NCBI GenBank assembly: GCA_965223855.1
Contig: CBDCXM010000009.1
Span: forward strand, 288,001-352,000
DNA: 64,000 bases
Reading direction: 5' to 3'
Source of the DNA: Candidatus Multivoradales bacterium
GTDB taxonomy: Bacteria > Acidobacteriota > Thermoanaerobaculia > Multivoradales > JAHEKO01
Position 1 is the first letter of the stretch; every line of letters starts with the position of its first letter. The notes below the pieces were generated by a model. The model worked only from the letters and a program-made list of their open reading frames with translations, was not told the origin of the DNA and made no database searches. Shown here one piece after another: positions 5,773 to 22,742 of this stretch. A program made the position numbers and the translations under genes.

Positions 5773-6373
<601 letters not shown>

Positions 6374-16725: not shown

Positions 16726-17081
16726 GATTCCTCCTCCGGCAGCACGACCTTCGTCGGCAGCACGAACCCCTCGGCGCGCAACGTCACCTCGGCGCCGGCC
16801 TCGATCTCGAAGCCGTCGAGCTTCTTCCAGCCGAGCTCCTCGGTCGCCCCCGCCGCCAACGAGGCGAAGGCGTGGTTCCTGACGTCGCCGTTCGGGTTCT
16901 CGATCCGCACCTCGACGCCGGTCAGCGCCTCGCTGTGCCGGTTGGTGATGCGGAGGATCTTGCCGATGCCGACCAGCGACGGGCGGTATTGAATCTCCAC
17001 CGGCGGCGCCGACACCGAGGTCGAGCAGGCCGCCAGCGACAGGGCGACGAGGAGGGCGAGTCGGTTGCGAAGAGCGCTCAT
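16722..17081 (-). CDS. hypothetical lipoprotein
   Basis: MSALRNRLALLVALSLAAC lipobox; short beta-rich domain; coupled to the amidohydrolase gene. Confidence 0.65.
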   Translation of the reverse strand: MSALRNRLALLVALSLAACSTSVSAPPVEIQYRPSLVGIGKILRITNRHSEALTGVEVRIENPNGDVRNHAFASLAAGATEELGWKKLDGFEIEAGAEVTLRAEGFVLPTKVVLPEEES

Positions 17082-17176
17082 CCGCGGATCGTACCTCGCA
17101 CCGTAGAATGCATTCCGGCGCGTCCGCGCCGTGCCTGAACCGCTCTGCACCTCTCAGAAGGGGGACTTCCCGAACC

Positions 17177-18461: not shown

Positions 18462-20486
<2,025 letters not shown>

Positions 20487-20572
20487 CTCTCGCCAGTCCT
20501 CCCCCGACACTACGGCATCACCACCTCCGGGGTTCGGTCCCGCCGCAGCCGGCCGATACACTCAGCCGCCGC

Positions 20573-20662
20573 GGAGGGGTGGCTGAGTGGTCGAAAGCAC
20601 TGGTCTTGAAAACCAGCGACCGTGCAAGCGGTCCGCGGGTTCGAATCCCGCCCCCTCCGCCA
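20573..20662 (+). tRNA. tRNA-Ser (anticodon TGA)
   Basis: GGAGGGGTGGCTGAGTGGTCGAAAGCACTGGTCTTGAAAACCAG...GCGGGTTCGAATCCCGCCCCCTCCGCCA; long variable arm, encoded CCA. Confidence 0.97.
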
Positions 20663-21237
20663 CCGAGGTTCGAGTCCGCATCTCGACGACGAGAGTTCTC
20701 ATCGAGCGGGATTCGAACCCGCCGTGAGCGAGCGGTGAGCGAGCGAACCGAGAACAACGGGCTCATCGGCCGGCGAAGCCGGACGACCGGCTTCCGAAGG
20801 AAGACGGGCCCCTCGAATCCCGCCCCCTCCGCCATTGAGGTTCGGACCGGCACTTCGACGACGATGGTTCTAGTCGAGCGGGATTCGAACCCGCCGTGAG
20901 CGAGCGGTGAGCGAGCGAACCGAGAACAATTGGGCTCCTTGGCCGGCGAAGCCGGACAACCGGCTCGCAACGCGAGACGGGCCCTCTAATCCCGCCCCCT
21001 CCGCCACTGAGGTTCGAGCCCGCATCTCGACGACGAGAGTTCTCGTCGAGCGGGATTCGAACCCGCCGTGAGCGAGCGGTGAGCGAGCGAACCGAGAACA
21101 ACGGGCTCATCGGCCGGCGAAGCCGGACGACCGGCTTCCGAAGGAAGACGGGCCCATCGAATCCCGCCCCCTCCGCCATTGAGGTTCGGACGCGCACTTC
21201 GACGACGACAGTTCTCGTCGAGCGGGATTCGAACCCG
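20663..21237 (+). repeat. tandem array of 3.3 x 172-bp structured repeats downstream of tRNA-Ser(TGA)
   Basis: tRNA 3'-end copies TC(G/T)AATCCCGCCCCCTCCGCCA at 20813, 20985 and 21157; antisense T-arm GCGGGATTCGAACCCG at 20706, 20878, 21050 and 21222; exact 172-bp period. Confidence 0.95.
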
Positions 21238-21242
21238 ATTCG

Positions 21243-22742
21243 TCACGAGCCCATTGGCGATGCCGATCCCCCGTCCTCGCAGAGTTTCTCCTGCGCTCGG
21301 ATCTCCACGAGATCCTCACGTGCTGCGAGATCCCAAGCCACGTCCCGACCCGCGAAGTAGTCGGAGGCTCTTGGTTGTACACAGAGGTGGATCGGAAGGA
21401 TCTTCGCTCGATCCGCCGGGTGCCCCAACTGCCAGTACAGCGTGGACACGACCAGCTCCAGCCGACCGCTCGGCAGCCTCAGCGAGATCGGATCGCCGTA
21501 GCTGTTCAACGGAGCACCGGGAGGCTCTCCCACGAAGACGGCGTCCGTGTGGTCGATGAGCTCGGCCACCAGCATGACGGCGGCGCTGAAGGTCTGGCGA
21601 CCGGTCAGCACGACGAGACGATTGTCGTTGGCGTACCTCGGCCTGGCCAGCAGCTCATTGACGAAGGCGGTCACCATCCGACCGTCGCCACCGAAGTTGT
21701 AACGCAGGTCGATGACGAACCGCTCCGGCTGCGCCCGATCGACCATGTCCCACATCCGGGCACGAAAGTCGTCCCAACCTATATCCCCGATGTCGGCGAA
21801 GAAGTTGAACTGGAACGTAAGGACTGTCTGAGCCTGATCCAGCCGTGCCCAGAAGGGCTTCCGGCTCGCGTAGAACGGCGCATCCTCTGCCGCCGGCGGG
21901 TCGCGGTAGGCCAGCGGAGGCTTGCCACCGTCAAACGGCGTCCTGTAGTTGTCGAAAGGCTCGAACGGCGGCCCGAAGAGCTCTCCCCAGTTTCTGTAGT
22001 TCGCCGAGTATTCGCTGTGGATCCTCGGCAGGCGACGGGTTTCGGTAGTGCCATCACCATGCTCGAAGGCGAGGGACACAGCGTCGGTCGACGGGTCCGT
22101 GACACCGAGGGCGGAGAGCAGCCCCACGTTTGAGAGGAGCGCAGCGGCGCCCTCTTTCACCTGAAGCGCGTTGTCGCCCGCCGTGGCCAGCGTGACCTTC
22201 GCGAGCACCTCCTCGACTGGTAGTTGCTCCACCCTTACCAGACGTCGACCGATGAGCTCGGCGTGTTGCTCTGCCGCGACCGTCACGTACACCCCGTCGT
22301 CAAACTCGTAGAAGCGCAATGGCAGCCAGACCGCAAAGCCGTCGATGCCGACCGGCTCGAGTCGAGTGTGGCCGTCACGAAGCCCCGCCACGGCCGACAT
22401 CAGGGTCGTAGTGATCTCGACATCCGAGCCACCCGCCAGGACGAGATCACGAGCTTCTTGCAGACCGTCACGCCAACGACCCTCGCCGGTCTGGAAGAAG
22501 GGATCCGGGTGATGCTCACGCAACAATCGATTCAGCGATTGGATATCCGCCATCCAGGCCTCCGCCGCGCTCGGCACGGCCTCGTCCACAGCCTGTGCTT
22601 GGCACGGCGAGGCAAGTGAAGGCGCCAGTACGAAAGGAATGGCGAAACGGAGCACCGGAAGACATCGGCCGCGAAGGATCCCGAGAGCCGTCTTCGCACC
22701 CAGACAAAGCAGTCCGGCGGTAGTCATCGTTGCAGATCGCAT
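21243..22742 (-). CDS. S41-peptidase-like exported protein
   Basis: GGAGGAGG RBS; LRDGHT, VIDLRYNFGG, GRQTFSAA and VGEPPG motifs. Confidence 0.7.
   Translation of the reverse strand: MRSATMTTAGLLCLGAKTALGILRGRCLPVLRFAIPFVLAPSLASPCQAQAVDEAVPSAAEAWMADIQSLNRLLREHHPDPFFQTGEGRWRDGLQEARDLVLAGGSDVEITTTLMSAVAGLRDGHTRLEPVGIDGFAVWLPLRFYEFDDGVYVTVAAEQHAELIGRRLVRVEQLPVEEVLAKVTLATAGDNALQVKEGAAALLSNVGLLSALGVTDPSTDAVSLAFEHGDGTTETRRLPRIHSEYSANYRNWGELFGPPFEPFDNYRTPFDGGKPPLAYRDPPAAEDAPFYASRKPFWARLDQAQTVLTFQFNFFADIGDIGWDDFRARMWDMVDRAQPERFVIDLRYNFGGDGRMVTAFVNELLARPRYANDNRLVVLTGRQTFSAAVMLVAELIDHTDAVFVGEPPGAPLNSYGDPISLRLPSGRLELVVSTLYWQLGHPADRAKILPIHLCVQPRASDYFAGRDVAWDLAAREDLVEIRAQEKLCEDGGSASPMGS

What the first reader, a model, noticed from the sequence alone, without database searches (positions are those of the whole stretch)
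20663..21237. tRNA-Ser(TGA) array: exact 172-bp period, A/B/A/B higher-order pattern and compensatory base changes
Seen: units 1 and 3 are near-identical, and unit 2 resembles the partial unit 4. Variants preserve pairing: TCG-GCCGGCGAAGCCGGA-CGA vs TTG-GCCGGCGAAGCCGGA-CAA, and CTTCC-GAA-GGAAG vs CTCGC-AAC-GCGAG, both enclosed by a GGGCTC/GGGCCC stem. Unit length is held at 172 bp. Each unit also starts with a T-loop-like decoy (GGTTCGAGTCCGC) able to pair with the antisense T-arm, and has a GAGCGAGCGGTGAGCGAGCGA motif. Inference: secondary structure is under selection. The antisense T-arm could pair alternatively with the pre-tRNA T-arm, the decoy or the next 3'-end copy, which could act as a switch on tRNA maturation or release CCA-ended RNAs.
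Basis: partly seen in the sequence, partly recalled or inferred. Interest (0 to 1): 0.7.

Follow-up and report, generated by a model that had tools for sequence, protein, structure and literature searches.

The report
RtT-like repeats behind a tRNA-Ser gene
Behind the only serine-tRNA(TGA) gene lie three and a half copies of a 172-base, hairpin-rich unit built from a backwards and a forwards copy of that tRNA's own end; the design matches the poorly understood RtT repeats of E. coli and recurs behind other tRNA genes in this bacterial family and in salt-loving archaea.

Summary
tRNA-Ser(TGA) at 20573-20662 is followed by 3.5 units of exactly 172 bp. Each unit has a spacer, a 17-nt antisense copy of the tRNA's T-arm, a GTGAGCGAGCG x2 hairpin, two small hairpins, and a 22-nt copy of the tRNA 3' end with CCA.

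It is not a tRNA gene array and lies 60 kb from the nearest integrase gene.

The same design follows all four tRNA-Ser genes and tRNA-Gln(CTG) in this genome. It also occurs in 15 of 45 genomes of the family. The antisense arm always matches the local tRNA.

The hairpins covary strongly. Mismatches are strand-biased (30 G-U vs 8 A-C), which points to a sense-strand single-stranded structure, most likely RNA.

The closest known thing is the E. coli tyrT/rttR 178-bp repeat. It shares the layout and the GAGC-N-GCGA hairpin, but the Rfam RtT score is far below threshold.

Similar modules occur in haloarchaea, where one core is inverted between two species.

Transcription is untested and the function is unknown.

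The parts
20573..20662 (+). tRNA-Ser(TGA), the only copy in the genome; its T-arm and 3' end are the template of the repeat arms
   Evidence: ARAGORN; Rfam tRNA 64.8 bits; genome-wide tRNA list
20663..20834 (+). unit 1 (A type), 172 nt
20835..21006 (+). unit 2 (B type), 172 nt; 23 substitutions and an offsetting +1/-1 indel pair against unit 1
21007..21178 (+). unit 3 (A type), 4 differences from unit 1
21179..21237 (+). partial unit 4; the array stops right after its antisense T-arm, 5 nt before the stop codon of the convergent gene at 21243
20706..20722 (+). antisense T-arm of unit 1 (GCGGGATTCGAACCCGC). Same element at 20878-20894, 21050-21066 and 21222-21237
   Evidence: the repeat finder: 17/17, 17/17, 17/17 and 16/16 complementary to 20635-20651
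20723..20747 (+). H2 hairpin made by GTGAGCGAGCG x2: G-C pairs alternating with tandem G.A/A.G. Repeated at about 20895-20919 and 21067-21091
   Evidence: TRF 11-nt x2; model structure and column counts; motif count
20759..20811 (+). GGGCTC...GGGCCC domain of unit 1 enclosing hairpin TCG-GCCGGC-GAA-GCCGG-A-CGA (20766-20786) and hairpin CTTCC-GAA-GGAAG (20791-20803). Same domain in units 2 and 3, with compensatory changes in unit 2
20813..20834 (+). 22-nt copy of the tRNA 3' end (T-loop to CCA) closing unit 1. Copies also at 20985-21006 (TCTAAT variant) and 21157-21178. Its 5' part pairs with the antisense T-arm (helix P1, 11 bp)
5949..6373 (-). second locus of the same kind in the window: tRNA-Ser(GCT) 6282-6373 followed by 171-nt units (cores 6120-6222 and 5949-6051; a third degenerate copy further on)
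   Evidence: (z = -6.0)

Best explanation
The array is a tandemly amplified member of a family of tRNA-trailer modules of the E. coli RtT type.

Unit design. Each unit lies on the tRNA's strand. It carries an antisense copy of the local tRNA's T-arm, a hairpin with tandem G.A pairs (H2), one or two further hairpins, and a forward copy of the tRNA's 3' end.

Fold. As a single strand, the antisense arm pairs with the T-loop/T-stem part of the forward copy (helix P1) and encloses the hairpins. The acceptor 3' strand plus CCA is left as a free tail.

Most likely mechanism (inferred). The units are read through from the tRNA promoter. They are then cut at each duplicated tRNA 3' end by the enzymes that trim the tRNA, which would give stable, structured, CCA-ended RNAs of about 172 nt, as reported for RtT.

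Origin of the array (inferred). Unequal crossing-over between the 22-nt copies amplified the unit, and the A/B/A pattern comes from duplication of a two-unit block.

Likely role (weakly supported). I think the role concerns the tRNA's own 3' end and the trailer: processing, and stopping read-through into the convergent gene 5 nt beyond the array.

What is shown and what is inferred. Shown: the anatomy, its recurrence at specific tRNAs, hairpin covariation and strand bias. Inferred: transcription, cleavage and role.
For: Anatomy.

Not tRNA genes and not coding. Only one tRNA is called. 172 is not a multiple of 3, so each unit would be read in a different frame.

Recurrence in the own genome.
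- The module follows all 4 tRNA-Ser and tRNA-Gln(CTG).
- An antisense match of 13 nt or more lies within 400 nt downstream of 10 of 50 ARAGORN calls. One of the ten is a spurious call inside an array.
- Upstream, the count is 0 of 50, with a longest match of 9 nt.

Recurrence in the family.
- Model R1 hits 15 of 45 genomes and 8 of 20 genera.
- In 15 of 17 inspected loci the hit follows tRNA-Ser or tRNA-Gln(CTG). The antisense arm sits at +58 to +65, the 3' copy at +139 to +154, and both match the local tRNA.

Structure.
- 92.9% of cells are paired, 20 of 30 pairs have double changes, and 0 of 500 shuffles reach the observed values. Slid controls give 32-50% paired.
- 30 G-U against 8 A-C mismatches.
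- GA/GA in H2 occurs in 15 of 31 distinct units and is replaced by GC/GC in 3.
- The sense-strand fold has z = -2.6 and is closed by P1. The antisense strand has z = -1.1.

E. coli parallel.
- MG1655 tyrV-rttR has the same order of parts and the same P1-closed fold.
- The GAGC-N(3-7)-GCGA motif is on the sense strand in 17 of 31 family units, 7 of 10 haloarchaeal units and 3 of 3 RtT units. It is on the antisense strand in none.
- rttR is described as an RNA encoded by one repeat unit of the tyrT operon (passages read in PMC3318445, and in bioRxiv 10.1101/2024.07.17.603846).
Against: - No expression data exist for this organism.
- The Rfam RtT score is 18.7 bits against a cut-off of 45, and an unrelated place in the genome scores 16.7.
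- The family model R2 gives only 12.0-12.4 bits (E about 0.5) on the three RtT units. Homology with RtT is therefore not demonstrated.
- The module is patchy and variable at the orthologous tRNA-Ser(TGA) locus. Of 12 related loci, 2 have both arms, 3 have only a forward copy and 7 have nothing clear, one of those with only 87 nt available. It is dispensable.
- In Halorubrum the core is inverted between two species at 46/47 identity. That argues for DNA-level dynamics and against a strict orientation requirement there.
- P1 complementarity could be kept by DNA-level copying, so it is no evidence for RNA.
- Alignment A2 was fitted to the structure it was scored on.
- Single-stranded DNA hairpins would show the same strand bias.
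- No terminator-like site is predicted in the array.
Confidence: 0.55

Rival explanations
1. The units are DNA scars or miniature non-autonomous elements of tyrosine integrases that recombine in the T-loop of tRNA genes. On this reading the 22-nt copies are att sites, the 150 bp between them is a bare attP, and the array comes from repeated integration or accretion.
For: - The repeated block runs from the T-loop to the gene's 3' end: with CCA in bacteria and without it in haloarchaea. That is the usual shape of an integrase identity block (established knowledge, recalled).
- tRNA-Ser(TGA) is an integration site in the same genus, where G003 has islands bounded by 62-nt copies.
- A T-arm is a natural core site: inverted 5-bp arms around a 7-nt loop with a palindromic TTCGAA.
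- The Halorubrum core is inverted between the two inverted arms.
- The distribution is patchy.
Against: - There is no integrase beside any module. The flanking ORFs are an S41-like peptidase and a SpoIIE/7TMR protein. The five integrase genes of the genome lie 37-260 kb from the five long-type modules (the four tRNA-Ser and tRNA-Gln(CTG)) and from tRNA-Tyr, the only loci I compared.
- The unit occurs nowhere else in the genome.
- The islands seen in the genus use a different, anticodon-loop identity block.
- The model does not explain why the antisense arm tracks each local tRNA. It also leaves unexplained the hairpin covariation, the strand-biased G-U and G.A pairs, and the fixed geometry across 8 genera.
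- A 172-bp circle is very small for integrative recombination (inference).
Confidence: 0.2
2. One reading: a cis-acting switch. The antisense T-arm pairs either with the tRNA's own T-arm, blocking or marking the precursor, or with a decoy or the next 3'-end copy, freeing the tRNA. This would control maturation of tRNA-Ser.
For: - All three partners exist, and the 17-bp T-arm:antisense duplex is the minimum-energy state of tRNA plus unit 1.
- In the short modules behind tRNA-Glu, Tyr, Leu(CAA) and Gly, the antisense arm is longer against the tRNA (13-15 nt) than against the forward copy (8-12 nt).
- The array holds four T-type sites and four antisense arms.
Against: - The fold is thermodynamic only. 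Co-transcriptional folding and tertiary contacts of the tRNA are not modelled.
- The 'decoy' is not conserved in related loci.
- Many relatives have this tRNA without any module.
- No signal or ligand is apparent.
- There are no RNA data.
Confidence: 0.12
3. Neutral local duplication. A stretch of DNA with quasi-palindromes, generated and homogenised by replication template-switching and unequal crossing-over next to a highly transcribed gene, with no function.
For: - Copy number and sequence vary between genera: periods of 159, 160, 163, 166, 169 and 172 bp.
- Units within an array are near-identical (97.7% here; 97% in L010), which indicates recent amplification.
- Presence is patchy.
Against: - The same tRNAs (four Ser, Gln-CTG) carry the module at the same distance in 8 genera.
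- Compensatory changes keep the hairpins while the sequence drifts.
- A shared hairpin motif is found in E. coli, this family and haloarchaea, on the sense strand only.
Confidence: 0.1

Closest known systems
E. coli tyrT/tyrV 178-bp repeats and their RNA product RtT (gene rttR; Rfam RF00391)
   Same: - Tandem units of nearly the same length (178 vs 172 bp; 3.14 copies as recalled, 3 full units seen, vs 3.5 copies here) directly behind a tRNA gene and on its strand.
- Each unit ends in a copy of the tRNA's 3' end with CCA: 19-20 nt in E. coli, 22 nt here.
- Each has, about 45-60 nt after the previous CCA, a stretch antisense to the T-stem/acceptor junction that pairs with that copy (P1).
- A hairpin C-GA-GC-loop-GC-GA-G follows, then small G+C hairpins.
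   Different: - The tRNA is Tyr, not Ser.
- The E. coli antisense arm is degenerate (GGATGAGAAGC for GGATTCGAACC) and reaches into the acceptor strand.
- Model scores are not significant in either direction (18.7 bits vs cut-off 45; R2 12 bits, E about 0.5).
- E. coli has an annotated small ORF (tpr) inside the unit. I did not look for one here.
- RtT RNA has been observed; RNA from these units has not.
Direct repeats of tRNA 3' ends left by integrative elements (att sites; cis-mobilisable elements without an integrase)
   Same: A forward copy of the tRNA's end from the T-loop to the last base, repeated downstream of an intact tRNA gene.
   Different: - No integrase, no cargo, 150 bp between copies.
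- An antisense arm matched to the tRNA.
- Conserved hairpins with strand-specific pairs.
Xanthomonas sRNA sX4 (Rfam RF02223)
   Same: The model matched 20564-20740 at 35.4 bits. The consensus printed is a tRNA-Ser-like sequence followed about 40 nt later by GGGGGGUGAGA. That stretch is complementary to the tRNA's CCCCCC and resembles the start of the RtT unit.
   Different: Below its cut-off of 70 bits. The match rests on the tRNA part. I did not follow it up in Xanthomonas genomes, so it is a lead only.

Membership tests
Rfam RtT (RF00391) | Covariance-model score at or above the gathering score (45 bits) | tested here: not met
   18.7 and 17.6 bits on units 2 and 3. The best hit of the model elsewhere in the genome, an unrelated place, scores 16.7 bits.
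Rfam RtT (RF00391) | Tandem units of about 170-180 bp directly after a tRNA gene, each ending in a copy of its 3' end with CCA | tested here: met
   Period 172, 3.5 copies, 22-nt copies. The E. coli locus was read for comparison.
Rfam RtT (RF00391) | Outer helix between a 5' stretch antisense to the tRNA T-stem region and the 3' copy; internal GA-containing hairpin | tested here: met
   Alignment to the RtT consensus structure; consensus fold; single folds; motif counts.
Rfam RtT (RF00391) | Transcribed with the tRNA and processed to a stable RNA of about 171 nt | not testable with these tools
   No RNA run is listed for this stretch.
Integrative element / att scar | Tyrosine integrase gene next to the repeated tRNA end | tested here: not met
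   Pfam on the flanking ORFs. PF00589 over the whole genome gives 5 genes, the nearest 60 kb from this tRNA.
Integrative element / att scar | Direct repeat of the tRNA's 3' part bounding the inserted DNA | tested here: met
   22-nt copies from the T-loop to CCA.
Integrative element / att scar | Occupied and empty sites among close relatives, differing exactly by the element | tested here: inconclusive
   Presence is patchy at 12 related tRNA-Ser(TGA) loci, but the flanks are not alignable and same-genus contigs break at the tRNA.
MITE / insertion-sequence derivative | Many dispersed, near-identical copies with fixed terminal inverted repeats and short target duplications | tested here: not met
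   The unit matches only its own locus in the genome. The arms differ from locus to locus and follow the neighbouring tRNA.
tRNA gene array / tRNA pseudogenes | Units recognised as tRNA by tRNA finders | tested here: not met
   ARAGORN and Rfam call only the first gene. Weak antisense-strand calls occur in sister arrays and look spurious.

The most novel reading that the evidence does not exclude
RtT is not an enterobacterial oddity. It would be one member of a superfamily of modules, present in both bacteria and archaea, that are templated on the 3' end of their host tRNA: an antisense arm, a GAGC-loop-GCGA hairpin and a forward copy.

On this reading the modules are either a conserved class of tRNA-trailer RNAs read by a factor common to both domains, or a new kind of non-autonomous element that targets tRNA genes and rebuilds its arms from each target.

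The free tail (acceptor 3' strand plus CCA) next to a T-stem-like helix would also make the bacterial long form a natural look-alike of an external guide sequence for RNase P. That last point is my own idea and is untested.
Probability: 0.3. Interest if true: 0.85.

Novelty: new variant of a known kind. Interest (0 to 1): 0.62.

Why it matters
The 178-bp repeats behind E. coli tyrT have been known since the late 1970s (recalled), and their RNA still has no settled function.

This locus shows the same design in a distant phylum, at a defined set of tRNA genes, with enough diverged copies to see which parts are kept. Those parts are the P1 helix made from the tRNA's own end, and a hairpin with tandem G.A pairs.

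That gives a concrete, testable core for RtT-type RNAs. It also suggests that such modules are widespread, including in haloarchaea.

There is a practical point too. These units make tRNA finders call false tRNAs on the opposite strand, and they break short-read assemblies at tRNA genes.

Tried and rejected
Expression. The look-up of sequencing runs listed no RNA holder, so expression could not be examined.

Laid contigs. The contigs laid cannot phase spacers with cores, because all units share an identical stretch of at least 55 nt. One X2 contig joins a B spacer to an A core, which may be a graph artefact. One X3 contig skips 20655 to 21218 with only 21 letters on one side; I give it no weight.

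Rfam. The RtT and sX4 hits are below their cut-offs.

Viral contigs. The pattern scan gave 2 hits, both the antisense of a tRNA-Met inside a phage tRNA cluster, which is irrelevant.

Genome contigs. Of 24 loci from the pattern scan, 19 were coding or otherwise unrelated chance matches. L028 (Halorubrum) has the motif but no tRNA was seen.

Class II tRNA idea. I considered that the modules are tied to class II tRNAs (Ser, Leu, Tyr, Sec) or to SerRS substrates. I rejected this because tRNA-Gln, Glu, Gly, and in haloarchaea Lys, Arg and Asp, carry them too.

CsrA sponge idea. GGA hairpin loops occur in some sister units but not in this array (by eye).

Orphan half unit. I followed a half unit in G003:C17 (L007) in the hope of finding a full-size integrative relative. 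There was no tRNA in the 26.5-kb contig and no integrase among the 7 ORFs tested on one side.

Phylum search. The search with R2 used strict filters and scored only 27 candidates per genome. Its single hit outside the family (G187) is the tRNA genes themselves. 'Not found' there is weak.

Haloarchaeal loci. Of 11 loci inspected, 5 (L106, L107, L108, L112, L113) had no tRNA called in the fetched piece and were not examined further. L038 (inverted core) was left out of the motif count.

Reciprocal model. R3 (haloarchaea only) finds the three units as the best hits in the window (E = 3e-4 to 7e-4). Its training rows had themselves been found with models or a pattern derived from this family, so the test is not independent.

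Literature. The searches found no description of RtT-like modules outside enterobacteria in the held library. This covers only that library and those terms. Bosl and Kersten 1991 (PMC329039) is not held, so what I say of it comes from citing passages and from recall. Supplements were not consulted.

Unpublished genome. G005 is counted in the tallies. Its element (L009/L067) is identical over the compared stretch to the public record L049.

Taxon label. 'Thermoanaerobaculia' comes from the titles of the public records L039 and L049, which carry the same element.
Full report
WHAT IS THERE

The window holds one tRNA-Ser(TGA) gene at 20573-20662 on the + strand (ARAGORN; Rfam tRNA 64.8 bits). It is the only gene for this tRNA in the 4.5-Mb genome.

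From its T-loop onward, Tandem Repeats Finder reports a repeat of period 172 with 3.5 copies and 87% matches, over 20641-21237. The repeat finder gives spacings of 172 and 172.

Reading the sequence, each unit consists of:
- a spacer of about 43 nt;
- a 17-nt stretch that is the exact reverse complement of the tRNA's T-arm (17/17 in units 1-3, 16/16 in the partial unit 4);
- GTGAGCGAGCG twice in a row;
- a GGGCTC...GGGCCC domain with two 5-bp hairpins;
- a 22-nt copy of the tRNA from the T-loop to CCA.

The array ends right after the fourth antisense arm, 5 nt before the stop codon of a convergent ORF (21243-22742, weak Peptidase_S41 match). The gene on the other side is a SpoIIE/7TMR-DISM protein. 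The unit matches nothing else in the genome.

Units 1 and 3 differ at 4 of 172 positions. Unit 2 differs from unit 1 by 23 substitutions, one inserted base and one deleted base, so the length of 172 is kept by offsetting indels (counted on its alignment).

Partial unit 4 is nearer to unit 2 (5 differences in 59) than to unit 3 (7) or unit 1 (10). That margin is small.

The two quoted compensatory cases are real and make three compensated pairs. A spacer hairpin that is perfect in unit 3 is broken in unit 2.

Public short-read contigs carry the A-core to B-spacer, B-core to A-spacer and last-unit to flank junctions. The A core has about twice the depth of the B core. This fits the assembly, though the runs may be its own source.

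IT IS A FAMILY, NOT A ONE-OFF

In the same genome the same layout follows all four tRNA-Ser genes and tRNA-Gln(CTG). These are:
- TGA;
- GCT, at window 6282-6373 on the minus strand, with two to three 171-nt units;
- GGA;
- CGA;
- Gln(CTG).

In each case the antisense arm and the forward copy match that tRNA and not tRNA-Ser(TGA).

A simple scan of all 50 ARAGORN calls looked for stretches antisense to the tRNA's own last 23 nt.
- Downstream (400 nt), a match of 13 nt or more is found for 10 calls. One of them is a spurious call inside an array.
- Upstream, none is found; the longest match is 9 nt.

Besides the long form, a short form follows tRNA-Glu(CTC), tRNA-Glu(TTC), tRNA-Gly(TCC), tRNA-Tyr and tRNA-Leu(CAA). 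It has the antisense arm at +22 to +27, one long hairpin and an 8-12-nt forward copy.

ACROSS RELATIVES

A covariance model built from seven units (R1) hits 15 of 45 genomes of the family and 8 of 20 genera.

In 15 of 17 inspected loci the hit lies behind tRNA-Ser or tRNA-Gln(CTG). The antisense arm is at +58 to +65 and the forward copy at +139 to +154. The other two loci are contig ends without a tRNA.

One relative has the module behind tRNA-Sec.

Tandem arrays with other periods occur in other genera: 159, 160, 163, 166 and 169 bp.

At the orthologous tRNA-Ser(TGA) locus the module is patchy. Of 12 related loci, 2 have both arms, 3 have only a forward copy and 7 have nothing clear.

A sample of 151 genomes of the phylum gave no true hit outside the family, but under strict filters. 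Named public records with the same element are titled Thermoanaerobaculia MAGs.

STRUCTURE

The consensus fold closes the unit with an 11-bp helix, P1, between the antisense arm and the T-loop/T-stem part of the forward copy. The acceptor 3' strand and CCA stay free.

On 38 distinct units, 92.9% of cells pair and 20 of 30 pairs show changes on both sides. The covariation score is 0.198, against 0.014-0.026 for slid partners, and no shuffle out of 500 reaches the observed values. The alignment was fitted to the model, which favours the structure.

P1 itself proves little. Both arms are copies of one hairpin-forming tRNA segment and could be kept complementary at the DNA level.

The internal hairpins are the real evidence. 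Helix 5 is 98% paired, with double changes in 7 of 8 pairs.

Two features are strand-specific.
- Mismatches are G-U 30 times and A-C 8 times.
- The hairpin right after the antisense arm (H2) alternates G-C pairs with tandem G.A/A.G. This is seen in 15 of 31 distinct units, and GC/GC takes its place in 3.

On the other strand these would be C-A and pyrimidine mismatches. The sense-strand core folds with z = -2.6 and the antisense strand with z = -1.1. So the constraint acts on the tRNA-sense single strand. RNA is the simplest reading, but single-stranded DNA is not excluded.

CLOSEST KNOWN THING

Weak Rfam hits to RtT led me to the E. coli K-12 tyrV-rttR locus. Its 178-bp unit has the same order of parts:
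- a spacer of about 59 nt;
- GGGGAAGGATGAGAAGC, a degenerate antisense of the tRNA-Tyr T-stem/acceptor junction;
- the hairpin CTC-GA-GC-GCCA-GC-GA-GAG;
- small G+C hairpins;
- AATCCTTCCCCCACCACCA, the tRNA's end.

The Rfam consensus structure and a single-sequence fold both close it with the same kind of P1.

The motif GAGC-N(3-7)-GCGA is on the sense strand of 17 of 31 family units, 7 of 10 haloarchaeal units and 3 of 3 RtT units, and on the antisense strand of none. Mononucleotide shuffles give 0.75, 0.17 and 0.11. The family and haloarchaeal sets were found with models or a pattern that hold the motif. The E. coli set was not.

Formal membership fails. The score is 18.7 bits against a cut-off of 45, no better than chance in this genome. 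The family model gives E about 0.5 on RtT.

So the array works like RtT as far as anatomy can tell, but it cannot be filed in RF00391.

HALOARCHAEA

A pattern taken from the window found Halorubrum loci in which tRNA-Leu(TAA) is followed by:
- a 46-nt spacer;
- an antisense arm;
- GTGAGCGAGCGGAGCGAGCGAAC;
- a 22-nt copy of the tRNA's end.

The family model then hit 11 of 41 genomes of that archaeal family at E up to 0.05. In 6 of 11 inspected loci a tRNA (Lys, Ser, Arg or Asp) is followed by an antisense arm and a 17-23-nt forward copy. Both follow the tRNA's own T-loop variant (TTCAAAT or TTCGAAT). One search shows a further case behind tRNA-Lys.

Two of these cores contain GAGCGCCAGCGA, the same 12-mer as the RtT hairpin.

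Between two Halorubrum species the 47-nt core is inverted relative to the tRNA, at 46/47 identity. The inverted arms therefore recombine as DNA, and orientation is not strictly needed there.

In the bacterial family every unit that the models aligned has H2 right after the antisense arm. The models would score an inverted core poorly, however, so this is weak evidence for a fixed orientation.

HOW IT MOST LIKELY WORKS

I commit to this reading: a co-transcribed trailer module of the RtT type.

There is no gene and no predicted terminator between the tRNA and the units, and the units are on the tRNA's strand. Read-through from the tRNA promoter is therefore expected.

The duplicated 22 nt would present the same 3'-end context to the trimming enzymes. 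Units would then be released as CCA-ended RNAs of about 172 nt, folded as P1 plus hairpins. This is what citing papers report for RtT (passages read; the original paper was not available).

The array probably grew by unequal crossing-over, and A/B/A points to duplication of a two-unit block.

The role is open. I favour handling of the tRNA's 3' end and of read-through into the convergent gene. The stringent-response role proposed for RtT cannot be tested here.

The integrase-scar reading explains the forward copies and the inversion. It does not explain the matched antisense arm, the strand-specific hairpins, the fixed geometry, or the lack of any integrase nearby.

VERDICT

The structural inference is supported. 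The mechanism is not shown.

It is a new variant of a known but barely understood kind. The larger point is that RtT-type modules may be widespread and may occur in both domains.

Noticed in passing
window 5780-6373 (-): A second array of the same kind behind tRNA-Ser(GCT) (6282-6373). It has 171-nt units with a different core: hairpin GCACGCC-GGA-GGCGTGC and a 9-bp hairpin before the forward copy. The forward copies lack CCA. One unit folds with z = -6.0.
   Followed up: partly
window 19544-19629 (-): ARAGORN calls a tRNA-Pro(TGG) of 86 nt without CCA inside the SpoIIE-family ORF (18462-20561). The Rfam scan of 19000-22500 at E up to 10 shows no tRNA there, so it is probably a false call.
   Followed up: partly
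own genome C8:294413-294498, C9:456986-457061, C9:2762657-2762733, C8:282392-282466, C9:3100717-3100803 (outside the window): Short modules behind tRNA-Tyr, Glu(CTC), Glu(TTC), Gly(TCC) and Leu(CAA). A 13-15-nt antisense of the tRNA's T-stem/acceptor junction lies about 22-27 nt after the gene behind Tyr, Glu(CTC), Glu(TTC) and Leu(CAA). After it come one long hairpin and a short GAATCCC-type copy. The module is in tandem twice for Glu(TTC), Gly and Tyr.
   Followed up: partly
own genome C9:791116-791205 (+); L052:416-501 (-): ARAGORN calls a 'tRNA-Val(AAC)' and a 'tRNA-Lys(CTT)' on the strand opposite to sister arrays. The antisense of a unit looks tRNA-like, with a true T-arm at its 3' side. 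This is an annotation pitfall.
   Followed up: no
L041:6088-6174 versus L038:107-195: Two Halorubrum species have the same tRNA-Leu(TAA) module, but the 47-nt core between the inverted arms is flipped, at 46/47 identity. This is a recent DNA inversion.
   Followed up: partly
L056 (G003:C290:1000-13400): In a genome of the same genus, tRNA-Ser(TGA) is followed by two islands (2.4 and 8.4 kb). They are bounded by 62-nt copies that start in the anticodon stem, with GTGGTCCA-type repeats on both sides of the copies. This integration system differs from the 22-nt copies of the array.
   Followed up: partly
L099 (G019:C185), tRNA-Sec at 1344-1443: A relative carries a full module behind tRNA-Sec, with arms matched to that tRNA. 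The window's own genome has none behind its tRNA-Sec.
   Followed up: no
L007 / L064-L065 (G003:C17 about 17023-17115): A half unit (hairpin domain plus forward copy of a tRNA-Ser(TGA)-like end, one mismatch) sits alone in a 26.5-kb contig without any tRNA gene. Its origin is unexplained.
   Followed up: partly
window 20564-20740 (+): Sub-threshold match to the Xanthomonas sRNA sX4 (35.4 bits, cut-off 70). Its consensus looks like a tRNA-Ser plus the start of an RtT-like trailer, so similar modules may exist in Xanthomonadales.
   Followed up: no
own genome C9:3055281-3055367 and C9:3057867-3057953: Two tRNA-Leu(TAA) genes lie 2.6 kb apart with nearly identical downstream sequence for at least 260 nt. 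This is a recent tandem duplication of a gene-containing block.
   Followed up: no
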